A stretch of 64,000 nucleotides of DNA, taken from Geosiphon pyriformis uo1 (lineage: Eukaryota; Fungi; Glomeromycota). The notes under the pieces were generated by a model. It was not told where the DNA came from, searched no databases, and was given only the letters and a program-made list of their open reading frames with translations. Location of the stretch: contig JAAOMT010000571.1 in assembly GCA_016748015.1 (NCBI GenBank), forward strand, positions 62,001 to 126,000. The letters are read 5' to 3'. The stretch's first letter is position 1; each line of letters begins with the position of its first letter. Of this stretch, positions 3,434 to 59,544 are shown in pieces. The translations under genes were made by a program, and so were the position numbers.

Positions 3434-14915
<11,482 letters not shown>

Positions 14916-26800: not shown

Positions 26801-27124
26801 TAAAAAAATTTGAAAGTATAATATAATGTTTAAAATTTAAATTGGTATTTGAATTGTTATTACTATTGTTATTATAAATAGCATTAGAACTATTATTGTT
26901 ATTATTGTTAAAGTTTGAATTATAATTGATTATTGATTTTAATTTTCATATATATTTGTTAATTGGTTCTTTTTTTTAAATATTAAATAGATTATATGTA
27001 ATAATAGATTATAAATAAGATTACAATTATTACAATATTTAAAATCACATAAAATTAAAAAATAACCACAAAGTTTAGTATTTAATTGTTTTAAATACTG
27101 CTTTTGTTCTTTTTTAATAGATGC

Positions 27125-27958
27125 TATTACTTATAAAAAGAAAACAGATATAGAAAAATAGTAGGCCAGTAAGAAAGTAGTAGTTAGCATGTGAGCACAT
27201 TGCTTAGCAATATAAAGCAATGTCAAAAATCATGGCATATTATTCAGCAATATGAAGCAATGTTAAGAAAATATGGCATATTGTTCAGCAATGTGAATAT
27301 TGCTTGAGAAATTATAGCACATTGCTTGAAAATGTAAGTGATCTCGTAAAACCTAAATTATGTATATATAGTGATAGCATTAGAAGTAGAAAAGACAGAC
27401 CTCTCAGTTTAGATTTAATCTAAGCCACCTTTTCATTCACAAATATCAATAAATAATTATTTGCTATCTTAATCCACTCTCCACTATTAACACTTCATGT
27501 TGATAGCAATTAATACTTAACTACATTAGAACAATAGCTCTTGATCATGGCTATTAATGGGATACTAACTTGCAATTGCTTTTGTTTATTTTCTTTTATT
27601 TTTTTTATTTCTTTGTTTTACTAATTGATTAGAAATTAAGCACTAAGTTATTGATGTCATGAATAGTCTGGTAAAAGACCCAGAAATAAGGGTAAAATTA
27701 TATATATTAACAGACAGCTTACCAGAAGGGCATGACTGCCAGATTAAACTGGTCACCACACTAAAGACAGAAATTGGGAAAACAACTTGAGGAAAACAAC
27801 TTAAACCAACCATAGTGAATCTCTATCTATTATACAAAAAACTCTGCAACAAATCTTCAGATTCACCAAATCTTCAGATATCAACACTAGAATACCAAAC
27901 TAGCACCAAGTTACAGATTTGTTATTTGATTTGAGACCCCAAATAATCATCTGTAATA
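27125..27958 (+). repeat. 5' LTR of element A (834 bp; termini mutated TG->TA and CA->TA)
   Basis: Direct repeat of 36359-37101; TATA-like TATATATAG near 27363. Confidence 0.93.
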
Positions 27959-28020
27959 TTTGATGCTCTCTGTGAAATATAATTCTACAGAGAACCAGCA
28001 CCAACAACAATCATCCAAAA

Positions 28021-31000
28021 GTGGCAGAATTAGAAATCATAGGGACAAATCATCTAGGATTCGCCAAATTCTTGTTTCAATGGTACAGCCAACAATTGGG
28101 ATTAAACAATAACCATTTCTCAGCAGAATCAGTTTTTAACTTCTATGTCAATAATAAAATCACAGACTGCTTAGAAAGAACAGTTGACATTAAATCTGCA
28201 AGAAAAAACTTATATACAGAATTATTTCAACATACCAGTTTACCAAGAAACTACAGTTTCACACCAATCATCAGGGAAATCAATCAAACCATTAAAAAGT
28301 ATGCACAACAACAATTCTCCATCACCTATACAGACAAAGGCAAAGGAAGATTGCAAATACTAGCAGTGACATTAAAACAAATATAACCACCCACTTGGAA
28401 GAAAACCAGAGTTGAATTACCAGCAAACCCATCATACCACTATATACCTGGAAGCACCATTAACATCATATCAACAGATGTATCCATATCAACTATGACA
28501 TCAACATTTGGACAATTCCCATTCCAGAGTAAACAAAAAAAAGAAGATTTTTTAGGACCATACAGTGTGTATTTTGAAGGATTTAAGTCATGATTGTCAA
28601 TGCCATCAGAACTTTGATCTCCACCACCCCAATTCAATTTTAGAACTGCGAGTTTTTGGGAAATAATGGAATCGGAAGGAGAACAGAAAGAAGAGGAAGA
28701 AGAATCTGAAGATCAAGAATTTACTTACCAGAATCCGATCCCAGAAAACCTGGAAATTAAAACCCCAAATCTACAAATTCAGCAAAATCTAAACTTGAAA
28801 AATCCAGAAATCAGAACTCCGAATATTTCAACACTACTGAATTAAGACAATCCAAACTCTGAGTTAATTAATTAGCAAAACTTATTTCCAATAATTATCA
28901 TTGATCAGCCACCAGCTGAACCAATCTAACCACAACAAATATTACTACAACAACTACAACAACCGCTTCAACAGCCACAACAACAACTTCAACAACCAAA
29001 CTTAGATCCAATGGCCTATACTCCAATAGCAAAACTTGAGAAATTCATCAACAAAGAAGACAATGCCCAAATATGACTTAACAATGTTGAAAAAGCCATC
29101 ACAGCTAATGGATGGAATGACCAGAGAGCATTTCAAGTCATCTCTTATTTCTTACAGGATATCACCAACTCGTGATATCAAAGTTTAGCTATCAAACCCC
29201 AAACATTCTAGGAATTTAAAACCACATTCTTGGGATATTTCAGTAATAATAACAGCATTAATTGCTTGGCAAACACTTTTATCACTATCAAGCAAGGAGA
29301 AAATGAAGCAGTCACTACTTACTTAGAATGCTTCCACAAAAATCTGCGCCAAATTTAGACCATATAGGCTGATTATTTCACAGCACCACAAATCTTAAAT
29401 CAATTCATTAGAGGTCTGCACAGTAGCATCTTCCAATATGTGTGCCCAATGCATCCAGCAGACTTCCAAGCTATAGTTACAAATGCCAGAGATTTTGAAG
29501 CAGCCAAACTCAAAGCCAACTATGCTTAAGCTGTAAACTTAGTAATGAACAGATCATTTAACTTGGATTCCAAACTGAAGCAATTAAGTGACTCACTCAA
29601 TCAGAAATTAGAAGAGTACTTAGCTAACAACAATCAAGCCATTTATCAACCTCCCCAATGACACAAAAACCAAGGAAATAGAAATTGATTCCAAAATCAG
29701 TCATGTCCAGCATCTTTCATGACTAATTAACAGTGGCAGTAGAAAATATGTACTTGTCACTATTGTGGTAAACAAGACCACTTGCAAATTGATTGCCACC
29801 AACATTTAAATAACCAATGATTGGGAAATCAATATCGAAATCCCAATTGCCAGATTCAAATTCCAAATCATCAATCAAATCCAGCTCTATATCAACCAAA
29901 TTACTTACTGATGACGCAGTCATTGTATCAAACTCCAATGATGCAGCAATTATACTTACCTCCAGTCTATTAGTCTCCAGCATCAATTTATCAACTACAG
30001 TTCCAATCCATTTATCAGTTGCAGTCTCAGGTAATTTATTAGCCCCAACAAAATCAAATACCATCCCAGTACTTATCTTAAAATGAAACCCAAAGGCTGA
30101 AACTAACACAACAAAGCTAAAAATTGTCAATAATAGTCTATTAACCAATCTCCAGTTCTACAGCACAACTATTAGGATTTTAACAATGGAATTCGGGCAC
30201 TGAGAACTCCCAAAATCTGAATGCCCAACACTATTTAAGTCTTTTGGTTATCCCAAAAGATGCCCCACCCAACAACCCAGAAACCAACAACATACTTCTA
30301 ACCACAGTCACCAATAACAAATCACTAGCAGCAATCTTTCCATTTGAACTCGAGGAAACCACACCAGTTCTATTATTCAATAGAGCCATTCTAGATACCA
30401 AACCAATTACCACCATGTACACAGACATAAAAGTTAATGGCCACACCATCAAATTAATCCTAGATAGTAGATTAGCTGGCAGCATTATCACATGACAACT
30501 CATAAACCAATTAGATCACAGAGTTGATTGTGCTGTCAGCATGTGCATAATTACTGTTGATGGAGTGACCAAAACACCAATTGGTGAAATTAATGACTTT
30601 CCATTCAAAGTCAATAGCATCATTACTCCTATCAAAGTCCTAATGATGGAAGCAACCCAATATCAAGCATTGGTAGGCAATGATTGGTTATCCAAAACTA
30701 ATGCCATACTCGATTGGACCACTTAAGAACTACAACTCAGCCAAAATGGCCAACACACCTGAGTACCAGCAACCTGTGGTCACTTCAAACCCAGCACTGC
30801 TATAAAACCACTAATTGAGTTTGAAAAGGACAAGAAAAAACCAACATGGGAAGCATATCAAGTCTTTTGGGCCAATGAAAACCACAACAAGTTACTGCCT
30901 ATACTATTCTGGAACAACAACAGCAAAAGAAAACAAAAGGACACAGAACTTATTTGAAACATTAACTAAGTCTGATAAACCAACAACAATCAAGACAAAA

Positions 31001-34000
31001 TAATAAAGTAAGAATAGAAAAAAGCTAAATAAGAGAAAAGGGAAAGAGGAGAAAGAAAATTTAACACCAATCACCACTTATAATTACTATACAAATACTA
31101 CACCATGATGATCTATCTATTGTCAGCCAAAACTTATATGCATCAATTGTGGCAAAAAATTGTCATCAATGGGTGCATGCTATAATGATGATAAGGAATA
31201 CTCAACAGTAACCAAATTTTACTGCCATGCATGCATCATAGAACACTTTGGATGACCAAAACGGAAAAAAAAATGGGACAATGATCCTTGTCTAGCTTGT
31301 GGAGAAACATTACTTGACGAAGGAATGTGAAATGACATTTCTGGTCAAGGAGAAACATGCAATGCTTCATGTCAGTACACGATCCTTATCAGCAACTGGG
31401 TTAGGAAAGGGACACCAATAAAAGCCGCCTAGAAAAGAGCTGTACAACAATTGGACAGTTGTTCACACAACGATGATGAGATATGAAGAATGGCAATCAC
31501 CAAAATAGAAGAAGCACCACCTGAAGAAATCAGAGAAATCAAAGACAACCCTCCAGAGCCCATAAAACTTGACTGGGACTCAGAACCAGTCATAAATCTC
31601 TTGGATCCAGAACAATTCCATGAACATTATCAAGAGCTAGCACCTACAAAAGAAGAGCAGGAGCAATGCTTGAAAGAAATTAACACTTGACTATGTGATC
31701 ACTGTTTGATTCTATGTGACTTCCAATATTGTAATGAATGTGACCTTATTTACAATTCACTACCATGCATTATTTACACAATCCCAGAAGAAAAAAAACC
31801 AATCAACAGTTGTGCATCAGAATTGGAATCAACTTTCAATCCTGATTCAAACTCTGACAATGACAACAATGAAAACAACAGTTCCAGCTTCACTCCAAAT
31901 AGCAATGAAAATTACAATGATTCAAACTTTGATTTAAACCCCAAAACATTTATCGCATTTTCTGACCTCACCAAAAAACAGGAATTTAAATAGTTTAGCA
32001 ATAGTAGTGAAGGTATCATGCCAGAATATGCACATGATACAGATACAGAGTTTGATCTGAAATATCCAGGAAAAGATTCCATCAAATTGGAACCACATTT
32101 GCACACCTGTATTGATCTTAAAATAGCACTGGAAATTTTAATGACCACTATGATTCAATTAGCATCTAAGAGTAGTTTAGCAAAAAAGAGAATCAACATC
32201 AAAGGAGGAATAATTGATGCAGAGTATATAGGAAATATCATTGCTATATTACAAAACAACTCAGAAAAGACCTATACCATAGAACCAAATAAAAAGATAG
32301 CACAGGCAATATTCCTACCTCTGGTAAAAATAGCTCAGTTAGTGTCAATGGGAAGCAAGAAAGAATTAGAAATAACAGCAAGAGGGATACAGAGATTCAG
32401 ATTAATGGGTAGAATAGATATATCAGTTAATATGGCAGAGGAAAAGATTATTAACAAAGAAAAAATTATCTTAATCCATCAATCAATTTTCATTCCATCA
32501 TATGATCAGTATATGTTAGCCATAAAAAGAGAAGTAAAGAATCAAGCTCAGTTGTTTGAAGCAGAAGCTATCATTTGTGAATTAGGAGAGATTGGACTTA
32601 CTAATCTTTACATATCAGCCAAAAGTCCCAAAAACATCAAAATTCTCATCTACAACATAACGAAAAATGTCATTGAGATACCAAAGGAAACCATCATTGG
32701 ATATTTAACCACTGAAGTTAAGGATCAACCACCAGACCATATTCCAGATTTTCCATAGCTTTGCAGATATGTGGACATCACATTACAAACCATCTATGAG
32801 CAAAGTGAATGTTATCTGCTCCAATCAGAACAATTGGAACAGATAAACATGAAGAATCTAGACTCACTCCAACAGATACAACTAAGAATGTTATTCAGCA
32901 ATTTCAATGACATTTTTGCTAGCAAAAATGAATTTGGCCACACCAATATCATCCAACATTAAATTAAGACTAGAAATACAATGCCAATTAAGCAAAGAGC
33001 ATACAAAGTACCACCAGCTAGTCATAAGATCATTTGTCAAAAAATCAATTGGATGCTTGACAATGGGCTAATTCAGTCATCAATGAGTTCATAGTTGTTA
33101 CCAGTGGTACTAGTCCAAAAAAAAATGGGAAAATTCATTTTTGTGTGAATCACTGAAAACTGAATGGAGTCACCAAAGAAGACAGCTATCCAACTCCAAA
33201 GATCCAAGAACTATTTGATGCTTTTGGAGGAAATAAATGGTTTTCAACACTAAATTTAGATAGTGGTTACTGGCAAGTAGCCATGGATCCAGCTGACAAA
33301 GAGAAAACAGCATTTACCATAAGAAAGGGAAACTTTGAGTTTGAAGTCATGCCATTTGGCTTGATGAATATTCCAGCAACATTCCAATGGCTCATGGAAA
33401 TTGTTTATACTAGATTACTGTGGAAATCAGTAGTTGTTTACTTAGATAACACAAATGTGTTCTCAAAAACATTTGATAATTATCTGCACCATCTCCAACA
33501 AGTGTTTAAAAAACTTAGATGAGCAGGATTGAAACTAAATGCCAACAAATGCTTCTTTGGAAAAACAGAACTAAAATTCTTGAGACATGTTGTGAGTAAA
33601 AATGGCATCAAAACAGATCCAGACAAGATTGAAACTGTCAAAAACTTTCTAGTACCAAACAATTTCACAGAACTAAGAGCATTCTTGAAATTCACAGGGT
33701 ACTATTGCCACTTTATCAAAGACTTTTCTAAACTGGCCCAGCCACTTTATCATTTACAAATTAAGAATGTGAAGTATGAATAGACAAAAGCTCAACAAAA
33801 AGCATTTGACACACTAAGAAGAAAACTTATTCAAGCTCTGGTGTTGATGTATCCAGATCACAACAAACCATTTATTATCACCACTGATGTATTAGACCAG
33901 ACATTGGGAGCAGTACTATCACAGAAAAAACCAGATGGAAGAAAACATCCAGTAGCTTACGCCAGTAGAAGCTTAAGTCCAGCTGAAAAGAATTATGGAA

Positions 34001-34242
34001 CATTAGCATTAGAACACTTAGTAATTTATTGGGCAGTCATAAAATAGAAAAAATACTTGAGTCAGAAGTTTGATGTATATACTGATCACAAAAGATTGAC
34101 TTTAATCCAGAAACAAAAATTTGAAGATGATTGCCATGTCAGATGAAAAATAGAACTTTCACCATTTAATTATATGATACATTATAAAAAAAGAAAAGAC
34201 AATGGAAATGCTGATGGTCTGTCGAGAATGAGACAAATCTAA
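28021..34242 (+). pseudogene. gag-pol of element A (Gag, protease, Cys-rich region, dUTPase, RT, RNase H)
   Basis: One frame through gag and protease, single-base slips near 31027 and 33120, many transition-type premature stops. Confidence 0.85.
32018..32412 (+). pseudogene. dUTPase domain in pol of element A
   Basis: Five dUTPase motifs: DTEFDL, SKSS, GGIIDAEYIGNI, KIAQAI, RGIQRFRLMG. The altered ones revert to DAGFDL, SRSS, GIIDAGYVG and RGIQGFGSTG by undoing G->A or C->T changes only. Confidence 0.9.
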
Positions 34243-34272
34243 AAACATTTTAACCTAAAAATATAACAAAAG

Positions 34273-35655
34273 ATGAATATACAAAAATATCAACAACTCC
34301 AATATTATATAAATACTCAATTGTTCAAGAAGAAATTATCTCAAAAAGAGCAAAGAAACATAAAACAACAATCAAAATACTTTATCAACCATCAAAATAT
34401 ACTTTACTGAAAGAACAAAAAAAATTCAGACCAACCAACCAGAGTAATCACAGAACCAGAGAAAGAGACAATATTATTCAACATGCACTCAGATCCAACA
34501 ACAGAACATTTTCATAAAAAAGCAACCATAGAGAGAACTAAAAAAAAATATTATTGGCCATTAATGTATCCAGATATCATTCAATATGTCCAAAATTGTA
34601 ATGCTTGTCAAAGAAGAGAAGGAACAAAACCCAGTAAACCATTGAGACCAATCAAAGTGGAACAACCATTTGATCACATTGGAATTGACTTAGTCAGATC
34701 ATTAATAATTACCAGCAGAGACAACAGATATATTGCAATAGCCATGAACTATCTTATTAAATGGCCAGAAGCAAAAGCCATTTAAAGAGCAGATGCAGAA
34801 TTCATTGCTGAATTTGTTCATCAAGATCTGATCTGTTAACACAGATGCTCAAAAAAATTATTATTTGATCAAGGAACTCACTTTGTGAATAGAACATTAG
34901 CAGAACTAAGCCAAAGATTTGGAATAAAAAGACCACTATCATCATCATACCATCCACAAACAAATGGGTTAGTTGAAAGATTCAAAAGAATACTGTGTGA
35001 AGCAATAGCCAAAATTAGCTAAGAAAACCAGAACAAATGGGATTTAATTATATTATCAGTATTATTTGCATATTGAACAATAAAGCAAGACACCACATAA
35101 GCAACACTATTTGAATTAGTATATGATAAAACAACAACATTACCAGTTGAGATAGAAGTCAATACATATCCAACTGAACCAATAACAGAAGATAATTTCC
35201 AAGAAACATTGTTGAAAAGAACATATGACTTAATAGAAACACTAGAAAACAGACGACAAAAAGCAGCTAATAACATCCAAAAGTCACAAGAAAAGCAAAA
35301 AAAATGACATGATAACCAACTACCAGATAAACCAGTTGAATTTAAGATTGGAGACAAAATATTATTACATTATACCAAAGCAGAAAAACAATGGAGTGGA
35401 AAATTTGACCCCAAATGGGATGGACTATTTCACATAGAAAAAATTTTTGAAAATGAAGCTTATAAATTAAGATAAAACAACAAAATTTTAGCCAAAGCAG
35501 CACATGGTGATCGACTGAAATTATATCACCAGATAGCATCATTATTTACCAATAACATTCCACAACTGAGAGTACAAAAAATATTAATTCAACCAGATGA
35601 GATTCTATGCGATCTGAAACCAATCATAATTATTGAACCAAACATATCAAATTGA
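34273..35655 (+). pseudogene. Integrase of element A
   Basis: MHSDPTTEHF...CNAC (HHCC), FDHIGIDLV, FDQGTHF, HPQTNGLVERF, KFDPKWDGLF; no chromodomain seen. Confidence 0.9.
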
Positions 35656-35709
35656 ACAACCAAAAAGTATATAAAAACACAGTACACGTGACAAAAGCAA
35701 CCAAGAAAA

Positions 35710-36345
35710 ATGGAAATACCAGATCATATTTACACTATAGCCCAACAATTGTTCCAGGCCTTAAGTCAACAACAGTTAAACATGGAAATTGTTATTAACA
35801 ACCAAATAATTTGCTATCAAAACATCCAAAGAAAAACAAAAAATACACCATATTAATGGCCACTAAAGAATAATAAAAATTGGACAGATAACTTAATAAA
35901 AAAAGTGAAAAACACTTTTGAGAAGATACCTATTATGGCACCAACAGAAGATCTTACAAAAAAAAATTGAAAGCAATGAACAGAACGACTTTTAATATCA
36001 TATTGCTACTATCAGTTAAGTCAAAAGTTGAATATTCAGGAATTGTATATTAACAAATCCAAGAGAATATTCAATTAAGACATAATACAACAAATTGAGA
36101 AATTTATTGGAAAAAAGATGAATTCAACACTACATGTTAAAACAATGTACCAACTACACAATATATTTCAGAACTATCCAGAAATACTGTTATACTTTGA
36201 CATAAAAACCATAACCATTAACCAATAGGGAAGAATAAATAATACACAAGTAGAAAACATGAGAAACAAAGTCGAACAAACAATACTTGAAAAAGAAGTG
36301 CTAGAATTAATTTAAAACAAAGATTTTGATAGAGCTCAATATTAA
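35710..36345 (+). pseudogene. ORF3 of element A (~211 codons, unknown function)
   Basis: ATG at 35710 and a single frame to TAA 36343-45, broken only by stops explicable as CAA->TAA or TGG->TGA/TAG. Missed by the ORF track. Confidence 0.7.
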
Positions 36346-36358
36346 AAGGAGGAGATAA

Positions 36359-37101
36359 TGTTACTCATAAAAAGAAAACAGATATAGAAAAATAGTAGGC
36401 CAGTAAGAAAGTAGTACTTAGCACATAAACACATTGCTTAGCAATGTGGAACAATATCAGAAATCATAGCACATTGCTTGAGAATGTGAGCAATCTCGTA
36501 GAACCTAAATTATGTATATATAGTGGTAGCATTAGAAGTAGAAAAGACAGACCTCTCAGTTTAAATTTAATCTAAGCTACCTTTCCATTCACAAATATCA
36601 ATAAATAATTATTTGCTATCTTAATCCACTCTCTACTATTAACACTTCATGTTGATAGCAATTAATACTTAACCACACTAGAACAATAGCTCTTAATCAT
36701 GGCTATTAATGGGATATTAACTTGTAATTGCTTTTGTTTATTTTCTTTTATTTCTTTGTTTTACTAATTGATTAGAAGTTAAGCACTGAGTTATTGATGT
36801 TACAGATAGTCTGGTAAAAGACCCAGAAATAAGAGTAGAATTATATATATTAACAGACAGCTTACCAGAAGAGCACAACTGCCAGATTAAACCAGCTACT
36901 ACACTGAAGACAGAAATTGGGAAAACAACTTGAGGAAAACAACTTAAACCAACTATAGTGAATCTTTGTCCATTATACAAAGAACTCTGCAACAAACCTT
37001 TAGATCCACCAAACTTTCAGATATCAACACTAGAATACCAAACCAGCACCAAGTTACAGATTTGTTATTTGACTTGAGACCTCAAATAATTATCTGTAAC
37101 A
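36359..37101 (+). repeat. 3' LTR of element A (743 bp, TGTTAC...GTAACA)
   Basis: Preceded by PPT AAAAGGAGGAGATAA and followed by TSD ATGC. Confidence 0.95.
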
Positions 37102-38561
37102 ATGCCAAGTTTTGGTAATATTTATAAAATTGTTTTGGATTACTTATAATGTTAATAAAAATATTTGAATTTAGATTCAGCAAGTTTTAATAAGCTGTTT
37201 TTAATTTTTAATATTTTACTTAAAGATATGTCTTCAATTTTAGCAGTTATTATTCTTCAGATTTTATCTTTATTATATAGATAACTGTCTAATCATAAAA
37301 GAATTTTGTTTTATATAGTGTCTATAAACATTTTTTTATTTACTTAATTGTTAATAAGAATTATGTATTAGCACAATTTGTCACCAGAAATGTTGTTTTA
37401 TATTTCTTTGTCTAAAAAAATTTTTTTATAAATAAAACAAGATTTATTGTTTTATTTTTTCTGTTGTTTTAGTTATTTAAAGTATTTTTAATAACAAATT
37501 TTATAGTAGTAATAAGTACATATTTTTTATTTTTTTTCTAATAATATGCAAGCTTTCATAAATAAAAGCTTTTTGTTATAATTTTTGTATTTAAGTAAGA
37601 TATAAAGTAGTTGTTTCTTTGGTTTTAGTATTAAATATAAAACATACTAATTGTTAATTAGTTTATTTGTAAAGATAGTAACTTAAAATTTGTCTTTTTT
37701 TTTTCTTTTTTTTTTATATAAATACTAAAGATAACTTATTGTGATTTTTTTTGTTCATAAGATTTAATAGGCTTTTCAAATAAATTTCTCTTTTTTTTCT
37801 TAAATTTTATTAATAATTGTATGTTAATAGTAATTTTAAAGTAATTACAAATAGTTAAAACTTAAATATATTGATTATTTTAGTTAAACTTAAGCTTTTA
37901 AATATTTTAATTAAATATTATATTGGTTTTGGAAAGCCAGTTATTATTAACAAAAGCTTGGTACTATCTGGCTTCTATTATTAAAATTTTAATAAGCATA
38001 ATAATGTCATTAATTTCAAATAAAAAGTTATTAATTTTATCAATAGAAATTTTTGTGGCTTTATCAATAGTAATAATTCTGATATTGGCAATATAATCAA
38101 TTTAATAATCTAATTGATTCATAAATTATTGTATAATAATACTATTTGTTAATTCATTATCAAAAATTAACTTAATAAAATAGCTATTAACTTTTATATT
38201 TGTATACATAATGATAATTAGTTTGGTATTAAAAACAGTTTTATTGAATAATAAAGTTTTTATTGGGTTTTCAAGTTTAAAGAAAAAATAGTGATAAGTA
38301 ACTTATTTTTTGTTATTATAACTAATAGAATATTATTAATAAGTAGTTTTTAGATTTTCAAGTTATTGAATAAGTTGTTTTTTGAAGTGGCCAAAAGACT
38401 TAAATAGCTTTAAAAATTTGGGTTTTAGATATACTTATTTTTTGAATTTTGTTAACATAATTTTAAGTATTAGTTTAATATATTGGAATTAGTTAATATA
38501 TAATTATTGCTAATTTCTAGTTTTGTTAAATAATTTTTGGTTTTTGGTTTTTAGTTGGCAT

Positions 38562-39340
38562 TGTTACAGATGATTATTTAGGGTCTTAAAGCAAATAACA
38601 AATTTGTAACTTGGTGCTTAATTAATATAATGATGTTAATTTCTAAAGATTTTAATTATCTAAAGGTTTTTATATCTGAAGGTTTTTGTTGAGTCCTTTG
38701 TATAATGAACAGAGATTCAATTGTTGTTTTAGTAGCCTTCCAGAATTGCAATTCGGTCGAATTTTTTTCTCAGCATAGTAACCAATAATCCTTCTAATAA
38801 GCTATTCTTAAATCTATAAGTTTTTTACTCTTGTTTCACAGGTTTTTTACCAGTCTCTATAATGTCTGTAACTCAACACTTTTTTTTAATCCTTAATTAA
38901 TTAGTAAAACAAAAAAAAATAACAAAAAAAAATAAAAAAAAATAAAAAAAAAAGCCAAGGCAATAAATATTAATATTCTATTAATAACTGTGATCAAGAG
39001 CTATTGTTTCAGTATAATTAAGTATCAATCACTATCAATATAAAGTATTGATAATAGAGAATAGATTGAGATAATGAATAGTTATTTATTGATATTTGTG
39101 AATGGAAAGATTGCTTAGATCAAATCTAAACTAAAAGGTCTGTCTTTTCTTTTTTTAATGTTATCACTATATATACATAATTGAGATTTCTCAATTTCTC
39201 AATTTTTCACACCAGAAATCCTGAAATTTCTGGAATTCTGCAATTCCTCTAAGAGAAATCTTGGAATTCCACATTTATTATGGCTACTTTTAATTGGCTA
39301 ATTTATATACTAATATACTTTTTATATTCTATGAATAATA
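38562..39340 (-). mobile_element. Solo LTR related to family A
   Basis: Starts TGTTACAGATGATTATT (reverse complement of the LTR-A end); flanked by 4-bp TSD GCAT at 38558-61 and 39341-44. Confidence 0.85.
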
Positions 39341-40785
39341 GCATTTAAGCTAAATTTTGTAACAATACTTAAATTTGTAAAAGTTAATAAATTACTTGTG
39401 ACAATAGAGCTTAATAAATTACAAGTATTAGTATTTAATATATTAAAGATATATATATTGGCTAATGTACTATTTATATATAATAAAATTAATATTATTG
39501 TAATTTCAATTAATTACTAATATAATTCAAATTTGAAATTGGTAATCGAAATTTCTATATTGATTTTTTAATTATGAGTTATTCATTCTTAAATAACAAT
39601 AATAACAGATATGTGTTTTTTGCTATTACTGTTAATTTATTAATAATAATAATAGATATAATTAATTCTAGAACTAATTAAGATTTTCTTAATTGTTATA
39701 ATATTAAAAAAACTGATAAATTGCTTGATTTTTAACTAAATATTTCTCTATTTTTTGGTTAATTGTTTTATTAAACTGTTTTAGTTTGGAATCCAATTTA
39801 AATGATTTGTTTATTATTAAATTTTATGATTGGCTTTGAACTTGGCTAATTTAAAATCTTTGGCATAGATAATTATATCTTAAATATAATAAGCATACTT
39901 ATTGTAAAAAACTGGTGTATAGTTCACAAATAAACTGATTTAAAATCTGAGATACTGTAAAATAGTCAGCATTAATTGTTTAAATTTGGCACAAATTTTT
40001 GTAAATAAGTTATAACTGCTTTAGTATTATTTTGTTTAAGAGTAATAAAGCCAGTTAATAGGTAATTAATGCTGTTATAATTATTAAAATACTGTAGAAA
40101 TGTAGTTTTAAATACATTAAAATTATTAGGTTTGTTTGTAAAGCTTTAATATTACAAGTTGGCAGTATTTTATAAAAAGTATAAAATTTTTTAGAAGACT
40201 TTGATGTTATTCCAGCCATTGGTTATAATGGTTTTTGCAATATTATTTAGTTAGACTTGGATATTATTTTTTTTGTCAATAAACTTTTTAAGCTTAGCAA
40301 TTGGTACATATATTATTTGTTTCAAAGATAAATTGATTTGTTGTTAAAAAAGAATAGATATTAGTACAACTAACAATAAATTAATTTAGATAATTAAAAG
40401 TATGTTTTATTGAATAATAGGAATAAAATTAAGATTGTTTGGGTTTTTTTGGATTTAAACAATCGGAGTTTTATTTTTTAAATTATCTGAAATCAGATTT
40501 TTGTTATTATTTTCTTGATTACTACTTTTTTTTTTTTTTAATTTGGTATTTACTCAATTATTAATAAATCTGAAATTAGGTTGAAATAATAGTAATTAAA
40601 GTTTTAATGGTATTGTTGATCACAATTTTAGTTCTTTAAAGTAATTGTCATAAGTTCCCAATAATTATAATTTTTTCTAATTGTTTTAAAACAAAACTCA
40701 AATTATAAATGTCTTTGCAATTAACAATAATATAAATTCTAATGATATGTTAATAGTACTTTTGAATGTATAATAATATGAAAGG

Positions 40786-44119: not shown

Positions 44120-44411
44120 ATAATAGATTAATAAGCAAAACAATTTTTGATTTCTTTTAAGTAAGTAGTTGTATCTTTTTTTTTGTTAGTAAAAATAATA
44201 AAAAATCTTTGTTTGGTGTATTCTTTAATTTTGCAATTTATTTCTATAATTATTAGGACAAAACTATAATTTTGTAAAAAACTAATGTGTTGTAGTAGCT
44301 TATTGTAAAAATTTCTAATGATAGTGTTATGGTTAAAACCCATAGTTTTTATTAGTTATCACATATATTAGCCACTAATGTCATATAATTAGCCACCCTA
44401 TTTTTTGATAG

Positions 44412-44531
44412 TGATTGTTAATCTGATCAATGACCTGACCGTTGACCTGATCATTGACCTGATCAATGACCTGATTGTTGACCTGATTGTTGATCTGATC
44501 ATTGACCTGATCATTGATCTGGTCATTGACC
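44412..44531 (+). repeat. 12-bp tandem array (TGATCATTGACC) x10 in the 5' LTR of B; x6 in the 3' LTR (51461-51532)
   Basis: Units counted directly; four units equal the 48-bp LTR length difference (726 vs 678). Confidence 0.92.
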
Positions 44532-45102
44532 ACTTTAGATAGCTATATAAGTGATGATTCTCTTAGCTGTAGAAAAACATGATCAAAGTAACAAAATAAA
44601 CAATATCAATTACTTCCTTTTATAATCACTTATTCCCCTTTCCTTATCTTCAAGTATCTACTTGTTGGCATTCACATACCTTATCTTTTTCCCTTCTTGA
44701 TTTGTATTTGTTAGAATTAGCCTGAGAAGCAATTGGCTTGTTCTTGTAATTCATTGAATAAAGAAACAATTGAAAAGTACAACAATACCTATTATTGATT
44801 CTAAGAATCGCCGAGTTGAGGCATAGAATAATAGCAGTAGTGTTATCTTGTTGACAATCACAGACTATTCTTTTACCTTCAGATTTAAGAAAAGATTAGT
44901 GACTGTGATTTTTATGAAACTAATCATGCACATTAAATTCCTACTTATTCAATTCGCTCCTTTATTGTAATTCCCTCTTTGTTTATTTTCATCACCATAC
45001 AATACTGTTCTCTCTTACTATCCATTAGCTTGTTACTCCAATCCGTAACATAAAAGTGGTGCTCCCTGTGAGGTTGTTAAAATTCACTTATTCCCTCATT
45101 GT

Positions 45103-46655
45103 ATGGGTAATTACTTATATCTGCCACAGTAATCAGAAGAACACTTTGTAGCACACAACAGAAATGACCTAGATTTCATTGAACTTAATTCTCTGCCCTC
45201 CTGCTTGATCTGCTTCCCCCTTGAAGAACAATCCAGTAGACAATTCCAAGACTTCTGGAACTGGTTCCTGAACAAGCATTCAGCTAAAACCTACACAGCC
45301 TATACAACCTATTACTTTGATCAAGCTTATTTTGAAAACAACTTTGAAGAAAGAAACAACAGTATCAATCAGCTCTTATATTCTGCAACCTTTGAACAAC
45401 AGCCCCCTGATTTTGAATATCTGAATCATCAAATCCACATTTGGATTGCTGCCCATCAAGCAATTGAAACTCTTTTTGAAACAGAAGAAGAAAGCTACCA
45501 AACTGCCCCTGTTTTTGACTTTTTATCAAGTAAATCAGACTCGTCTACACAAACAGTTACCTCTGAACCAATGGCTAATGACCTCATGCAAGCAAACATT
45601 CTGGCCACCTTCCAAGGTATACAAACTGCTCTAGGAAGAAGAAATAATACCCCACTACCACTATTTAGAGGTGATGCACAAGATCCAATTGAATGGTTGG
45701 ATGATTTTGAGAGAGCTGCTACAGCCAACCAGTATGATGAAAAATACAAGTTCCAAATCATTGGTGGCTACCTCCAAGGCTCTTCTGCTACCTGGTTCTC
45801 ACAAGAAACAGATGCCAATGCTCAACACAGAATAATCAGATGGACACCAATTAATGCTGGAGAAGAAAATACCTTTTTCACTACCCGATTTGAGGCCAAG
45901 TTCAGAACCCCAATATTAATATCAAAATGGCGCATGGAATTGGAAAGAAGAACTCAAGGTCTTGGAGAAGTAGTGACTGAATATGCCAAGGCTATTAGAA
46001 AGCTAATCAAACATGTAGACTCTGGGAGAAATTGAACAGAAGAGCAGAAAATTCACTCCTTCACAAAAGGATTGAGAACTGATTTATCATATGCTCTTTG
46101 GCCCCTCCTGGCCCTGAAAGATAATCCCATCATAGATATGGCTATTGAATTAGCACAAAGAATTGAAAATAACCAAAGGATGCACTTGGAATCCACACTA
46201 CCAGTTTTTGCTTCTGCTCCTGTCATGGCTTTTGCCCCTCAAATGGCTGCTACTTCTTTTGCCACTCACACTCAAGATCCAAATAAACAGTTAATAGACA
46301 GACTCACAGCAAATCTTGCCTGGTTATTAGAATCTTTAGCCCAAGCAGTCAGAGAAAATCAACAACCACAAAGACCCAGATTTGAACCATGCTTCAATCA
46401 GTCCAGCAACCACCTTATCAAAGACAACAAAATTGTGGCCCACCTGTATGCTATCGCTGTGAATTAACTGGATACTTTTCAAGAGATTGCAACAATCCTC
46501 CACTGTCTCCACCAGTTCCCAGAAACAATGATGCTTAAAACAACAGACCTAACAACAACAATATGCCCAACCAAAGACCCAATCATGTCAACATCAATTT
46601 TTTTGGAGAGAATCCCCTAGTTGAAGCCACTGTTTATTAGCCTTTAAACTGGTAG
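45103..46655 (+). pseudogene. gag of element B
   Basis: ATG at 45103 (MGNYL...), capsid-like LPLFRGDAQDPIEWLDDFERAA, zinc knuckle CYRCELTGYFSRDC (H->Y), a frameshift lesion near 46400, stop TAG at 46653-55. Confidence 0.85.
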
Positions 46656-46690
46656 GCACATCTCCAAAGGATAAAAGTACAAGCCAACCA
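46643..46690 (+). promoter_or_regulatory. Programmed -1 ribosomal frameshift signal (T TTA AAC + stem-loop)
   Basis: The heptamer is in gag phase, one codon before the gag stop. The -1 frame is open from here into protease and RT. Downstream TGGTAGGC...GCCAACCA can pair. Confidence 0.75.
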
Positions 46691-49327
46691 GAAGAAAACT
46701 CCTTTTACGCTTTTAACTTAACTAATAATGACCATGACATAGATGAATTAGCAATCAACCCTTCTGAATCCACAAGAAAGAAAAAGAAAGCCAAAGTTGA
46801 TTTCGTTCTGGACCCCAATAAAGCTTCTACATCAACTGCTGACAACAATAAGCCCCCAAAAGCCAAAGTTTTCAAGAACCCTTCAAAGTTGGAACCCCCA
46901 GAAATAGTACAAAAATCCGGCTCCTATTCTGTTGTCAAAGACCTCATGGAAACCCCAGCACATATAACCTTTGGCCAATTGATGACCCATTCACAATTCA
47001 GAAAAGATCTTCGCAAATCTCTGATTCTAAAAAAAAAGACATCCAAAACCAACAAACGTCCTCACCAAGCTGGACTTGCTAACAATAGCAATGTCACTCC
47101 TCTAATTTGTAAAGCCCAAGTGGCTGGCTACTTCATCAATTTGATCTTAGACAGTAGATCATCTGTTAGTGTTATTGCTAAACACTTTTTTGAAGCAATT
47201 GGCAGAAAAATTGATAAACCATCCACACAACCAATGACCAATGTGCATGGTGATAAAAAAAAAGGGCTTGGCATAGCCAAAGCTATTCCTGTCCACATCA
47301 ATGACATCAGCATTGAAACTGATATGGAAGTATTTGAAGTGAAAGAATACACCATCATTGTTGGCAATAAATGGCTCAAGAAAGCAAAAGCTTTGCTTGA
47401 TTATGAACTCTGTGAACTAACCATTAGATGTGGTGAAAAACCCATTGTGGTTAAATATCACTATTGGACAACTCCCCCAGTACCCAAGCAGAGCCCAGAA
47501 GAAAATGAATCAGATGAATCAGATGATAAAGAAAGTGAGGAAGAAGAAAAACAAGAAAAAACTGCTGAACTTGCCTATACTATCTTCACCAGCAATGGCA
47601 AACCACTGGATAATGTCAAGGCAGATAAAGAAAAAATTATTGTCAATGGCAAGCTGATCTGCTGGCCTTATTATGACATGCTTAAAAGAACCTTTGACAG
47701 AAAGCCAGGCAAGAAAGCCAAATACAGTTATTGGTGGCATGGTCTTTGTGCCTGGTGCTGGTGCAACAAACCATTGTATTCTCCTAGTGATGAATGCATG
47801 TCCTGCCTGATTTATTACAAAGATTGGGAACCAATCAGCTTGATACCCCATAAGGAAATAAAAGAAGTCCAAAAGTCCTTTGAAAATGAACCACCTGAAA
47901 TTCAATCACTGGTTGTAGAACAAAGAGAACTCTCTTCAGAAGAAAAAAAGATAGACATTGAAAATCTGCTGGCTAGAAACAGCCCAGTTGTCTCAAAAGA
48001 AGGTGAACCTCCTGGACGTACACATGTGATACAACACACCATCATTATCAGAGAAACTCGTCCCATCCATTTGAAGTCCTATCAATCCAACCGATGCAAT
48101 GATGAGTTTATCAAAAAAGAAATAACCCAAATAAAAACTCTTGGATTCATACAGAAAACCAAGAGTGAATGGGCATTCCTAGTTGTAGTGGTATCCAAGA
48201 AAGGAGGAACCCTATGCTTTTGTGTTGACTATTGTCAATTAAATGCCATTACTGAAAGAGACATGTATCTACTTCCCAAGATTGATGCAATGCTAGACCA
48301 ATTCCATGGTGTTGCTTTCTTCTCAACCATTGACTTAACTGCTGGATTCTGGCAAGTAGAGATGGATCCAGAAAGCAGAAAGAAAACTGCTTTCATCACC
48401 AAGTATGGCACCTACGAATTCACAGTCATGCTTTTTGGTCTCACAAATGCTCCTCCCACCTTTCAATGCTTAATGGACAAAGTATTTGAATCAGTAAAAG
48501 AAAACTTTGTTCTAGTCTACTTGGACAACATAATGGTATACTCAAAAACCTGGGATAAACACCTTGAACATTTGCAAAAGGTTTTTGACCTCCTTAGAAA
48601 TGCTGGCCTCAAGATCAATCCAATCAAATCATTCTTTGGACGTCAATCCACCCAGTTCCTTGGCCATCTTATTACAAAAAATGGAATCTTCCCTGATTCA
48701 GCCAAAATTGAAAAAGTTTAAAACATTAGACAACCAATGAATGTTCATGAACTACGCTCTTTTCTTGGTTTGGCCTCTTATTACCACAAGTTTGTCAAGG
48801 ATTTCTCCAAAATCGCCACTCCTCTCAATCAGCTACTTAGGAAAAACATCAATTATCACTAGAGCACTCATCAACAAAAAGCATTTAAAATTCTGAAGGA
48901 AAAACTGGTTACAGAATCTATCCTCATGCAACCTAATCTGGATCAACTTTTTATCCTCCATACTGATGCATCTGGCTATGGACTTGGTGCTGTTCTTTCC
49001 CAGAAAGACAAAGATGGCAGGGAACATGTTATAGCATATGCCAGTAGAACTCTCACACCAGCAGAAAGGAACTACTCAGTCACAGAGCAAGAATGCTTAG
49101 CAGTAGTTTGGGCTACCAGCTATTGGAACAAATATCTTAAAGGTGTAAAATTTTTGGTGGTAACAGATTACCAAGCTTTGGTTTGGCTATGCAACAAAAA
49201 AAATCTGGAACATAAATGGATAACTCGCTGGATACTCCACTTGGATGAATTTGACTATGACATTCAACACCATAAAGGAGCTAATCATCAAAATGCCGAC
49301 ACTTTCTCCAGACTTACCATCCAGTGA
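46643..49327 (+). pseudogene. pol (protease, Cys motif, RT, RNase H) of element B
   Basis: LILDSRSSVSVI, FSTIDLTAGFWQV, MLFGLTNAP, YLDN, LHTDASGYGLGAVL, NADTFSRL then TGA TAG TAA. Confidence 0.92.
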
Positions 49328-49392
49328 TAGTAAAACCCTCTCAAACCAAACCAACTTAATTATTTGTAACTCCCCCACAAACAAACACAATA

Positions 49393-50706
49393 ATAGACTT
49401 GGACAACTACTCTGCCTTAATGGAATTTTTGGGTAAAAGACAATACCCACTGGACTATACTCGACAGCAAAGAGAACATTTGCACAAACAATCAAATTTC
49501 TATTTAATTCGCCAGAACCAGTTATATAAAAGAAATAAAAAAGATCCTGACTGCCCCCAGAGAATCATTAGATTTGAAGAAAAAGAAATTGTGATCTACA
49601 ATATGCACACTGATCCATTAGCTGGACACTTTGGAAAAACAAAAACAATTCAGAAAACTTTAGTTCGCTATTATTGGCCTATCTTGAGAAAAGACATCAC
49701 TGAATACATTAAAACCTGTAATACCTGCCAAAAAAAAGGAAAACCCAATCGCAAGGAAGATATCCATCCAATCTCTGTTGGTCAACCATTTGACAGAATT
49801 GGTATAGATGTTGTTGGACTTTTAATAGTAACTCCTGATGGCAACAGATACATTATCACAGCTACCGACTATTTTACAAAGTGGGTAGAAGCAAAAGCCA
49901 CCCCAAATCAAACAGCAGTCTCAATTGTCAATTTCAATTATGAAGATATCATTTGTCATCATGGCTGCCCCAAAGAACTTTTATCTGACAGAGGAAGAGC
50001 TTTTCTCAGTACACTGGTTGAAGAACTTTGCAGAAAAATGGAAATATGTCATAAACTCTTTTCCCTTTATTACCCCCAAACAAATGGCCTAGTGGAATGT
50101 TTCAATAGAACACTATGTAAAACCCTAGCCAAAACCAGTAAAGAAACCAACCTATGGGACAAAGTATTGCCTTCAGCTTTGTTTACCTACAGAACTGTGA
50201 ATCATGACATAACAAATTATGAACTCTTTTATCTGCTCTATGGACAAATGGCAACTCTACCAATAGAAATAGATATAGAAACAATACTTTTTGAAAAAAT
50301 AACAATAGGAGATTACAAAGACATTTTGCAAAGAAGACTTGGTACTATTTTTGACTCATTGGTAGAAGCATGGATAATTGTCTTTGAAAAGATAAAACAG
50401 TTCCAAGAAAAGCTCAAAAAGAAAAAGACTTATAAAACACTTTCCTTAAATGTTGGTGACTTAGTTTTGGAATACTATTCAGACAGAAACAATGTTTATG
50501 GTAATAAATTCTCTAGCTGCTGGAAAGGACCTTTTATAGTCAACAAAGTTTTGAACAATGGTTCATATATCCTATAAGATCAATATGGAACAATATTCAG
50601 TGATTGCCCTATTTATGGTATGCGACTCAAAAAATATCATAAACAACCTGATTGGTTATCTGTTGTGGTAATACTGATCCAAATGATCAGCAAAAATCAG
50701 ATATAA
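49393..50706 (+). pseudogene. Integrase of element B, in a different frame from RT-RH
   Basis: MHTDPLAGHFG...CNTC, FDRIGIDVVG, LSDRGRAF, PQTNGLVECF, WKGPF; probable start ATA (decayed ATG) at 49393. Confidence 0.9.
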
Positions 50707-50747
50707 ATAAATGCACCATTCCCAAAACAGAGGTATCTTCAATCAAC

Positions 50748-51404
50748 ATAAACAATTATTTCCTGGATCAAAACATTCAAAACGCTTTCTATACTCTCCA
50801 TGAGTACTGGATCAAGAACTATCCAAATACTACTTTGACTATCGGAAAACAAACCACCATAACAGACAACAGTAAAACTCACACTGTTATTAGACCAAAG
50901 AAAACAACTACCAGAAGAGAAAAAATTGGTGGCAAAATGGATAAATACCTGTTGGAAAGCATAACAGCAGTAATACTTTCACTTTTCAGCACAATTGGAA
51001 AAACAATACAAGAAATCTTGCCCATAGATAAAAACTTGTCATATGAAAGACAACTAGAACTCTATGATTGTCTTGGTGAAATCATAGAAGACATAAAGCT
51101 CATGAAGAAAACAACTTCAGAAATACAAGGGAAAATTTTGGCCATTATACGATTAAATGTCCCAAGAGTTTTGACCATTACTAGAAGAGCCAGAACTCTT
51201 ATACAAAGATTTGGTCTCTTGGATACAAAACTTATTTTACCTCAAGTATTATATACCCTATCCACAAAAGATTTCAACAAACTAATTAGTTTTGAATTAG
51301 ACAAAACCCTTCACATAAACTATCCCATAAATAGCTTGATTTCACCAGAGCTCAATCTCTTTGGAGAGAATGATGTTATGGTTGAAACCCATAGTTTTTA
51401 TTAG
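50748..51404 (+). CDS. ORF3 of element B (unknown function; open frame 50652-51404 reading into the 3' LTR)
   Basis: 250-codon stop-free frame between integrase and PPT; probable start CAAC-ATA (decayed ATG) at 50748. Confidence 0.7.
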   Translation: MNNYFLDQNIQNAFYTLHEYWIKNYPNTTLTIGKQTTITDNSKTHTVIRPKKTTTRREKIGGKMDKYLLESITAVILSLFSTIGKTIQEILPIDKNLSYERQLELYDCLGEIIEDIKLMKKTTSEIQGKILAIIRLNVPRVLTITRRARTLIQRFGLLDTKLILPQVLYTLSTKDFNKLISFELDKTLHINYPINSLISPELNLFGENDVMVETHSFY

Positions 51405-53082
51405 TTATCACATGTATTAGCCACTGATGTCATATAATTAGCCACTCTATTTTTAGATAGTGATCATTGACCTGATCAATGACTTAACCGTTGACCTGAT
51501 TATTGACCTAATCATTGACCTGGTCGTTGACCACTTTAGATAGCTATATAAGTGATGATTCCCTTAGCTGTAAAAAAACATGATCAAAGTAACGAAATAA
51601 ACAATATCAATTATTTCCTCTCATAATCGCTTATTCCCCTTTCTTTATCTTTAAGTATCTACTTGTTGGCATTCACATACCTTATCTTTTCCCCTTCTTG
51701 ATTTGTATTTGTTAGAATTAGCCTAAAAAGCAATTGGCTTGCTCTTGTAATTCATTGAATAAAGAAACGATTGAAAAGTACAATGATACCTGTTATTGAT
51801 TCTAAGAATTACCAAGTTGAAGCATAGAATAATAGCAGCGGTGTTATCTTGTTAACAATCACAGACTATTTCTCTACCTTTAGATTTAAGAAAAGATTAG
51901 TGACTGTGATTTTTATGAGACTGATCACACACATTGAATTCCTATTTATTCAATTCGCTCCCTTATTGTAATTCCCTCTTTGTTTATTTCCATCACTATA
52001 CAATACTGTTCTCCCTTGCTATCCGTTAGCTTGTTACTCCAACCCATAACAATAGTATCTAAATTTTTTTTGTCTTCTTAAGTAGCATATAATTTTTTTG
52101 TTAATGTAAAAATTGAAAACTGATTTTATTGGCCAATAATTATTTTTTAATCCTAAGTAAGTTTAATAATATTAAAATAAGAATTTTGCAAATCTTAAAT
52201 AATTTTTTTCTATGATTTTTTAGTTTGCCACTTTTTCAAATAGTTAATACTAATACTTGTTTTCTGTTAAATTATATCTTATAAGAAGTATTAAATATTA
52301 TAAATAATTATTTAGAATATTAAAATAAATAACAACCTTATAACTTAGTGCTTAATAACTATTTTTAATATTAATTTCTAAAGGTTTTCAAATTTAAAAG
52401 TTTTTAAGTTAAGTTTTTTGTATAATAAACAGAGATTTACTTAATAGTTATTTTTCTAAATTTTTTTTTTTAACATAAAAACTAGTTTAATCTAACAGTC
52501 ATGCCTTTTTGGTAAGCTATTTTTAAGTTTTTATTTTTGTTTTACAGATTTTTACCAGAATATTTTTGATATTAATATCTTAGTACTTAATTTTTTAATT
52601 AATTAATAAACAATAACAAAACCAAAGAAAATAAAATAAAATAAAATAAAATAAAAATAAAATAAAAATAAATAAAAAATTAATATTTTATTAATAGTTA
52701 TAATTAAGAGCTATTGGTCTAATATAGTTAAACAGCAGATATTATTAGCATAAATTGCTAATAAAATTGAAGAATATCAATTTTAATCCAATAAAAAAAA
52801 TAACATAGATTAAAAATAAATAAATATTTTATTAATATAAATATAAATCTGTTTTAAAATATAAAAAACTATTTTTTAAAAAAGAAGTATTTTTATAATT
52901 AGCTTGTTACTAATTATTTGTCTAGTTATTGGTTTTAAAAATTGATTTTTTTTTATTTTTAATTTTACTACTATATATATATAATTCTTATTATACAAAA
53001 TCTTTTAAAATTTTTTTTTTACTATACTTATTTTCTATTAGTTGTTATTAACTATTATGATTCTTATTTTTTATATGTAATA

Positions 53083-58690: not shown

Positions 58691-58778
58691 TTTAGTATAT
58701 TAAATATTAATATTTTGTTTTAATTATAATTAGTTTTTCATAAATTTTTCAATTCTATTTGTGTAATAATAATATTAT

Positions 58779-59544
58779 TGTTATAAGTTGAAATAACAAG
58801 TTAATAGATAGCAAAAAAGAACAAAATTATAGAATAATAAAATTAATTAAAGAAAAAATTACAATAAAAAAACAAATTAAATAAATAAGAATTCAATATA
58901 TATAATTAGTCTTATAAAAATCACAATTTTAAATCTTTTTTGGAAATTTAAAGGTAGAAAAATAGTCTATAATTGTTAACAAAATAATATTACTATTATT
59001 ATTTTATGCTTCAACTCAGCAATTCTTAGAATTAATAACAAATATTGTTGTGCTTTTCAATTATTTTTTATTTAATAATTTATAAAAGCAAACAATCACT
59101 TTTTAAGCTAATTTTAACAATACAAATCAAGAAAAATAAAATAAAATATGTAAATACCAACAAATAATCTTTTATTCCAAGATATTTAAATACTTAAAGG
59201 TAAAAAAAGATAAATAAACAATATAAAAAGAAATAATTAATAGTAGATTTTATTTTATTACTTTAATTATTGATACATTTTTTTTTATAGCTAAAAAATT
59301 TATTGCTTATATAACTATTAAAAATAGTTAATGACCAGATCATTAATCAAGTTAATAATCAGATTACTAATTAGATTAATGATTAGGTTAATAGTCAAGT
59401 TAACAATCAAATTATTAATTAAGTTAATATTCAAGTTAATACTTAAATCATTAATTATTATCTAAAAATAAGATGGCTAATTATATAATATTAGTGGTTA
59501 ATACATATAATAACTAATAAAAACTATGGATTTTAATCATAACA
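58779..59544 (-). mobile_element. Decayed solo LTR of family B
   Basis: Both ends match LTR-B in reverse complement (TGTTATAAGTTGAAATAACAAG...; ...AACTATGGATTTTAATCATAACA); remnants of the 12-bp array at ~59330-59455. Confidence 0.85.

What the first reader, a model, noticed from the sequence alone, without database searches (positions are those of the whole stretch)
35710..36345. Conserved non-env third ORF before the 3' LTR in two divergent Gypsy families
Seen: A has a ~211-codon frame and B a ~218-codon frame (50748-51404, stop-free) between integrase and PPT. By eye they share a pattern: YYQLSQKL / YDCLGEII, then MYQLHNIF / RRARTLIQRF, then TITINQ.GRINNTQV / ILPQVLYTLSTKDF. No signal peptide or TM segment is evident. 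Known: this slot holds env in errantiviruses or accessory ORFs in some plant elements. Inference: an undescribed helical accessory protein (anti-silencing, nucleic-acid binding, or movement between nuclei of a coenocyte). With separate IN and dUTPase this suggests a distinct multi-ORF retroelement class.
Basis: partly seen in the sequence, partly recalled or inferred. Interest (0 to 1): 0.8.

Follow-up and report, generated by a model that had tools for sequence, protein, structure and literature searches.

The report
Fungal retrotransposons' own third gene
Two decayed jumping-gene families of a fungus each carry a real extra protein gene after their integrase, with a TATA-like box just upstream; one is conserved in distant relatives and is predicted to fold like a DNA-binding protein that likely regulates the element, but the two extra genes could not be shown to be related.

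Summary
Both frames are real accessory genes of two Ty3/Gypsy families; all named relatives are Geosiphon pyriformis. The flagged ORF3-A (35710-36345) is not open here: it has 6 internal stops, but a sister copy is intact at exactly 211 aa. ORF3-B (50748-51404) is open, has 20 sisters of exactly 218 aa, and has intact relatives at 26-33% identity in unnamed assemblies; one was shown to sit in the same slot (integrase, ORF3, PPT, LTR). Neither is env-like. A shared helix-then-strands layout and one C-terminal motif leave remote kinship open (about 40%). New here: a TATA-like box 40-52 nt upstream of the ORF3 start in A, B and the remote relative, and a predicted three-helix core in ORF3-B with weak helix-turn-helix matches (Z 3-4). 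Best reading: a separately transcribed nuclear regulator, working like foamy-virus Tas (0.35). Third ORFs and dUTPase are known in LTR elements, so this is not a new class.

The parts
35710..36345 (+). ORF3-A, 211 codons, dead in this copy (6 internal stops); ends immediately before the PPT
   Evidence: intact sister P0121 79% identical over 100%
35668..35677 (+). TATA-like box 42-40 nt upstream of the ORF3-A ATG (candidate internal promoter)
   Evidence: function inferred
27125..27958 (+). 5' LTR of element A, with 40-bp U3 repeats (27195-27297); target duplication ATGC at 27121-27124 and 37102-37105
28900..29800 (+). A gag (Retrotrans_gag, Ty3_capsid), broken
30406..30714 (+). A aspartyl protease, broken
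32012..32383 (+). A dUTPase domain between protease and RT
   Evidence: PF00692 E=1.4e-17
33118..34242 (+). A RT-RNase H, ending in a stop at 34240
34273..35655 (+). A integrase, own ATG, no chromodomain hit
36344..36358 (+). A polypurine tract
36359..37101 (+). 3' LTR of A; 92% identical to the 5' LTR, 56 of 59 mismatches are transitions; palindrome at 36432-36446
44325..45050 (+). 5' LTR of element B, 12-bp U3 unit x9 (44423-44531); target duplication ATAG
45133..49327 (+). B gag-like frames and PR-RT-RNase H, ending in three stops at 49325-49333; no dUTPase
49393..50706 (+). B integrase in a separate, shifted frame
50702..50709 (+). TATA-like box 46 nt upstream of the ORF3-B start, overlapping the integrase stop
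   Evidence: function inferred
50748..51404 (+). ORF3-B, 218 codons, open; runs through the PPT (51363-51373) into the 3' LTR
51374..52051 (+). 3' LTR of B; 92% identical to the 5' LTR, 52 of 54 mismatches are transitions; 12-bp unit x6 (51461-51532)

Best explanation
Each element carries a real third gene after integrase that is likely transcribed from its own TATA promoter at the end of integrase and likely makes a soluble nuclear protein which, for the B type, is predicted to bind DNA through a three-helix core and would regulate the element's LTR. Shown: coding status, position, conservation of the B type, absence of env features, the TATA-like boxes, U3 repeats. Predicted: the fold. Inferred: promoter activity, DNA binding, action on the U3 repeats. 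ORF3-A is assumed to do the same job from its position and upstream box only; whether it is a remote relative of ORF3-B or an independent acquisition is open (about 40:60).
For: Coding and kept: intact sisters; full-length remote B relatives 42-54% identical to each other and 28-33% to Geosiphon; same slot in L001; codon-position identity 0.45/0.56/0.34 and 32 of 50 identical residues silently recoded between B and L001. Own promoter: TATAWAWR at -42/-40 (A), -46 (B), -52 (L001), against 5 matches in 8402 nt, 3 in 6323 nt and 1 in 1067 nt, and 2 of 164 ATGs in A's interior have one at that distance; no variant listed inside B's box among the 40 of 55 rows shown, so decay of this copy did not make it. 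Fold: residues 71-150 at pLDDT 75-94, helices 94-109, 117-128, 132-148; best re-aligned matches KorB DNA-binding domain (Z 3.8, 55 aligned, rmsd 2.9), Spo0J (3.7), SopB (3.4), TnsB (3.3), DnaA domain IV (4.0); the Atlas's own model also lists ParB clusters, TM 0.38-0.39. In 5 of 5 remote members examined the core is basic (13-20 K/R, 6-9 D/E) and the N-half acidic. Both LTRs hold tandem or palindromic U3 repeats upstream of their TATA. Precedent for the logic: foamy-virus internal promoter and Tas (PMC7390438, passages); own promoter and nuclear product of maize Grande gene23 (PMC7264820).
Against: All fold matches are in the range that the tool calls a common arrangement (Z under 8; top wide-search rows are a photosystem chain, Z 5.3, and the CHD1 C-terminal domain, Z 5.1); Foldseek has no match at E 0.001 or better in PDB or viral models; no Pfam HTH family hits. 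The TATA pattern was noticed after the fact, B and L001 are not independent, and the DNA is AT-rich. The U3 core motif is not found upstream of ORF3, and U3 repeats may equally bind host factors. The acidic N-half is not seen in the Geosiphon copies. ORF3-A was not folded, and in this copy it is in frame with integrase behind two stops, so a former integrase extension is not excluded.
Confidence: 0.35

Rival explanations
1. ORF3 is an RNA-binding accessory protein (suppressor of small-RNA silencing or export factor): its N-half would be a dsRBD-like domain.
For: The model's N-half runs helix-strand-strand-strand-helix and draws weak matches to dsRBDs (HYL1 Z 2.6, DRB4 2.5), T7 Gp1.2 (3.5) and RaiA/HPF (3.2-3.9). 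Gypsy elements are main small-RNA sources in Rhizophagus (10.1101/2021.03.30.436303, passages).
Against: pLDDT of that half is only 46-59; it is acidic in 5 of 5 remote members examined; no Pfam dsRBD hit.
Confidence: 0.2
2. ORF3 is a chromatin or integration-targeting factor that stands in for the missing chromodomain, or counters chromatin silencing by binding the element's DNA.
For: No chromodomain hit at either integrase end; core matches include the CHD1 C-terminal domain (Z 5.1, 72 aligned, rmsd 3.2) and DNA-binding bundles; copies decay almost only by transitions, as expected under cytosine methylation (inference).
Against: No test of integrase or chromatin binding was made; a separate promoter fits a diffusible regulator at least as well; Z values are not discriminating.
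Confidence: 0.2
3. ORF3 is a structural or transport protein that moves particles or RNA between nuclei of the shared cytoplasm, and A and B use unrelated proteins for it.
For: Position equals that of env; the host group is coenocytic (recalled).
Against: No membrane segment, no signal, no match to movement or envelope folds in PDB or viral models; nothing positive found.
Confidence: 0.12
4. The frames are passive: captured host fragments or chance frames copied with the elements.
For: ORF3-A has no relative outside Geosiphon in the searches run and is dead here.
Against: Chance of an open frame of this length by composition is about 6e-9 (A) and 5e-8 (B); B-type frames stay open from the same start to the same PPT-encoded end at 26-33% identity; no host-gene relative appears among 27 hits in 1.84 billion representatives.
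Confidence: 0.05

Closest known systems
Sense additional ORFs between pol and 3' LTR (aORF-3S) of Ty3/Gypsy elements; 'add. ORF' of fungal Gypsy elements (PMC7264820, parts 1-2 of 3; PMC2864245, passages)
   Same: Same slot and orientation, present in most copies, function unknown; dUTPase between PR and RT is described in Postia elements.
   Different: No transmembrane segment; no Pfam match; TATA-like box directly at the integrase end; B type overlaps PPT and U3; integrase in its own frame.
Foamy-virus Tas (Bel-1) under its internal promoter (PMC7390438, passages)
   Same: Accessory gene near the 3' LTR with a TATA-containing internal promoter; a DNA-binding activator of the LTR is the proposed working analogy.
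   Different: No sequence or fold match to Tas was found; no env; host is a fungus; promoter and activation are only inferred here.
Bdelloid rotifer LTR elements with non-env ORF3 and dUTPase (PMC5408684, abstract)
   Same: Non-env ORF3 plus dUTPase in LTR retrotransposons.
   Different: Those ORF3s are recognisable enzymes (GDSL esterase, DEDDy exonuclease); these have no family match.
KorB/ParB/SopB helix-turn-helix DNA-binding domains
   Same: Three-helix core of the ORF3-B model superposes over 55-89 residues at Z 3.3-3.8.
   Different: Below significance; no ParB N-domain; no sequence similarity.
Errantivirus env
   Same: Third sense ORF after pol.
   Different: About 200 aa, soluble, no signal or membrane segment, no env family match.

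Membership tests
Ty3/Gypsy LTR retrotransposon (Metaviridae) | gag, then PR-RT-RNase H-integrase order | tested here: met
   Pfam hits in that order in A and B; B gag by tblastn to A gag only
Ty3/Gypsy LTR retrotransposon (Metaviridae) | LTRs with TG...CA ends, PPT, target duplication | tested here: met
   4-bp duplications ATGC and ATAG; A's 5' LTR ends are altered by transitions
Ty3/Gypsy LTR retrotransposon (Metaviridae) | RT phylogeny within a named Gypsy clade | not tested
   no reference RT set was fetched
Errantivirus env | signal peptide and transmembrane segment | tested here: not met
   highest 19-residue hydropathy 0.33-1.18 in 6 of 6 proteins
Errantivirus env | similarity to env/fusion families | tested here: not met
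   no Pfam family at cut-off for A or B proteins
Chromovirus | chromodomain at the integrase C-terminus | tested here: not met
   no chromo hit at E 0.1 for A, B or L001 integrase ends; integrase ends shortly after the SH3-like tail
One shared ORF3 family (A = B) | significant sequence or profile similarity | tested here: not met
   BLASTP E=28 (9); hhalign 0.1%; HMM -0.7 bits, 1481 of 1969 scored shuffles as high; global Z 0.3-0.9. The A profile is shallow (Neff 1.3), so remote kinship is not excluded
One shared ORF3 family (A = B) | same fold | not tested
   both fold jobs went to the B type; the Atlas does not hold the A proteins
KorB/ParB-type helix-turn-helix | structural superposition of the tri-helical core | tested here: inconclusive
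   Z 3.3-3.8, rmsd 2.9-5.0; TM 0.38-0.39
dsRNA-binding domain | alpha-beta-beta-beta-alpha fold with basic RNA contacts | tested here: inconclusive
   topology fits, Z 2.1-2.6, low pLDDT, acidic in remote members
Foamy-virus Tas-like transactivator | TATA-containing internal promoter upstream of the gene | tested here: inconclusive
   box present in 3 of 3 loci with DNA; activity not measurable
Foamy-virus Tas-like transactivator | binds and activates the LTR | not testable with these tools
   needs binding and reporter assays
Foamy-virus Tas-like transactivator | sequence similarity to Tas/Bel-1 | tested here: not met
   no such Pfam or PDB sequence hit

The most novel reading that the evidence does not exclude
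A lineage of fungal Gypsy elements has evolved a foamy-virus-like layout on its own: integrase in a separate frame, and one ancient family of ORF3 proteins (A and B being remote relatives) made from an internal TATA promoter, which bind the U3 repeats of their own LTR and switch the element on, protein and repeats diverging together.
Probability: 0.15. Interest if true: 0.75.

Novelty: new variant of a known kind. Interest (0 to 1): 0.42.

Why it matters
LTRs cover 41.2% of the G. pyriformis genome (PMC11952901, passage), and these ORFs inflate its list of hypothetical proteins (at least 120 gene models for B, 5 for A). A retrotransposon with its own transcriptional switch would give a testable route by which such elements escape host silencing, and a parallel to complex retroviruses outside animals. 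If ORF3 is only one more unassigned accessory ORF, the value is annotation: one new protein family with a defined slot.

Tried and rejected
A-B homology: BLASTP, pairwise shuffles p 0.24-0.45 (13), hhalign with three B profiles and four settings, HMM, profile alignments, block tests; the first b2 register was misplaced by two residues and redone; the integrase-tail comparison was out of frame and redone. Family scans: Pfam, PHROGs, NCBIfam, PDB sequences, nothing at cut-off. First fold of ORF3-B was unusable (pLDDT 42). Foldseek PDB and viral: no match at E 0.001; a family that is not listed is not excluded. Atlas feature search gave only unnamed clusters at 0.90 or less; A proteins are not held. 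DNA context searches empty in viral contigs, prokaryote genomes and the first metagenome scan. No whole genome is held, so no DNA-level dN/dS among copies. Sequencing runs: no RNA holder listed. Homodimer job for ORF3-B: no verdict. Sequence look-ups among earlier scan notes: nothing. TATA-like matches near the integrase starts lie inside coding sequence and were not taken as promoters. Literature: searches listed no paper describing these ORFs; the library lacks most subscription papers, the G. pyriformis genome paper (recalled) was not listed, and no supplements were opened (the TE library of PMC11952901 may hold these families).

Full report
Setting. The window holds a RasGAP-domain gene and an acetyl-CoA carboxylase gene followed by two complete LTR elements, A (27125-37101) and B (44325-52051). 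Each has LTRs 92% identical, a 4-bp target duplication and a PPT; 56 of 59 and 52 of 54 LTR mismatches are transitions. Pfam gives protease, RT, RNase H and integrase in Gypsy order in both, gag in A, and dUTPase between protease and RT in A only. A and B are distant: RT 51%, RNase H 45%, integrase core 42%, gag 28%. All 120 listed hits of ORF3-B and all 5 hits of ORF3-A are named Geosiphon pyriformis, so the window most likely comes from that fungus or a close relative.

ORF3-A is a real but dead gene. The flagged frame has 6 internal stops. The other + frames hold 20 and 14, the reverse frames 13, 16 and 11; shuffles give 18.2 on average, P(6 or fewer)=0.0005. The pol frame of the same copy has 15 stops in 845 codons, so the decay is of the same order. 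Sister P0121 is open, 211 aa, 79% identical over the whole length, with Gln or Trp at all 6 places. Contigs of one DNA run show a high-copy family; at 3 of the 6 stops the listed majority letter gives a sense codon (40 of 234 rows shown), and no insertion or deletion is listed inside the frame. No relative outside Geosiphon was found, but the search was word-based (87 candidates), so this is weak.

ORF3-B is conserved. 129 of 375 candidates hit; of the 120 listed, 20 are exactly 218 aa and 22 have the family's start and end. A second round gave 12 hits among 2521 candidates. Four full-length remote types are 42-54% identical to each other and 28-33% to the Geosiphon protein, form their own branch (100/100), start at the same Met and end on the same acidic motif that the PPT and LTR start encode. 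For one of them DNA was found (1 of 116 stretches): L001 shows an integrase tail 50% identical to B's, a 47-nt spacer, ORF3, a PPT and a TG LTR start. ORF3 identity there is 26%, with codon positions 0.45/0.56/0.34 and 32 of 50 identical residues recoded silently: selection on the protein, weaker than on integrase. The hosts of the remote members are unknown.

A and B are not shown to be related. BLASTP E=28; pairwise scores within shuffles; hhalign probability 0.1% with three B profiles; a B-family HMM scores P0121 at -0.7 bits, with 1481 of 1969 scored shuffles as high; global profile alignments Z 0.3-0.9. Two hints remain. A forced alignment is colinear over 177 columns at 17% identity, helix then strands then helices. 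And another register, using A's last 60 residues, is reached by 48 of 2000 column shuffles and 0 of 39 real-protein decoys, but by 572 of 2000 block shuffles. The A profile is shallow and A was not folded. I put kinship at about 40%.

How ORF3 could be expressed. The gap between integrase stop and ORF3 start is 54, 41 and 47 nt in A, B and L001. A TATAWAWR box starts 42/40, 46 and 52 nt upstream of the start, against 5 matches in 8402 nt, 3 in 6323 and 1 in 1067; 2 of 164 ATGs inside A have one at that distance, and 0 of 124 in B, whose ORF3 start reads ATA in this copy and is not counted. In B no variant is listed inside the box although its two 5' neighbours vary in half of the depth (40 of 55 rows shown). 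The pattern was found after the fact and B and L001 are kin, so it is a lead for an internal promoter, not proof. In A the frame continues that of integrase behind two stops, and a one-base insertion at 35661 in about 18% of the depth leaves the ancestral junction unsure.

What the protein looks like. None of 6 proteins has a hydrophobic segment; no family library names them. The model from 23 B-type sequences has mean pLDDT 67; residues 71-150 reach 75-94 and form three helices, the N-half (46-59) is helix, three strands, helix. Foldseek finds nothing significant. The full aligner gives 2 of 48,161 chains at Z 5 or more, unrelated to each other, then many helix-turn-helix DNA binders at Z 3-4; the second look puts KorB, Spo0J, SopB and TnsB on top; the Atlas model points to ParB clusters at TM under 0.4. 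These values are within the range of common helical arrangements. The N-half has still weaker matches to dsRBD-like folds. Remote members have a basic core and an acidic N-half; the Geosiphon copies do not show the latter. B's LTR holds a 12-bp unit in 9 and 6 copies and A's a 40-bp unit with a palindrome, upstream of the LTR TATA.

Mechanism. The most economical reading joins these: an internal promoter makes a small soluble protein whose helical core binds DNA, likely the U3 repeats, and regulates the element, as Tas does in foamy viruses (PMC7390438, passages). I give it 0.35; RNA binding or anti-silencing 0.2; chromatin or integration targeting 0.2; transport 0.12; passive cargo 0.05. For ORF3-A the function rests on analogy of position only.

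What is known. Additional ORFs between pol and the 3' LTR are common in plants, some with their own promoter and a nuclear product (PMC7264820, parts 1-2 of 3); fungal Gypsy elements with an additional ORF or a dUTPase between PR and RT are described (PMC2864245, passages); rotifer elements combine dUTPase and non-env ORF3s (PMC5408684, abstract and outline). Earlier notes of this scan report similar unnamed ORF3s in other genomes; they are unchecked leads and none matched by sequence. My paper searches listed nothing on these ORFs; supplements were not opened.

Verdict. Real accessory genes, one an undescribed conserved family; not env; not shown to be one family; not a new class. New variant of a known kind, interest 0.42.

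Noticed in passing
window 34240-34275 and 49325-49395: Both elements stop after RNase H and begin integrase as its own frame at the same place (same frame in A, shifted frame after three stops in B). A spliced or re-initiated integrase message is possible; not checked across copies.
   Followed up: partly
window 24909-27124, 37922-38253, 39714-40304 (- strand): Element A is nested in an older, opposite-strand relative (gag, protease, dUTPase-RT-RNase H pieces at 66-68% identity) that ends about 1 kb from the acetyl-CoA carboxylase gene; no ORF3 remnant found.
   Followed up: partly
window 38555-39400 and 58772-59564 (- strand): Solitary LTR-like relics related to A and B; the A-type relic keeps the downstream part but has different U3 repeats, suggesting swapped enhancer blocks.
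   Followed up: no
window 30900-31993: A Cys-rich stretch without Pfam match lies between protease and dUTPase in A's pol; B has a shorter Cys/Trp-rich stretch between protease and RT.
   Followed up: no
window 61640-62287 (+): A 215-codon frame without Pfam match that looks like the start of a LINE ORF1 (resemblance recalled, not tested).
   Followed up: no
window 52073-52731 (- strand): A further relic of an A-type LTR and leader directly after B's 3' LTR.
   Followed up: no
window 12914-14125 (- strand): The RasGAP-domain gene's first long frame carries a very long Asn/Gln low-complexity tract.
   Followed up: no
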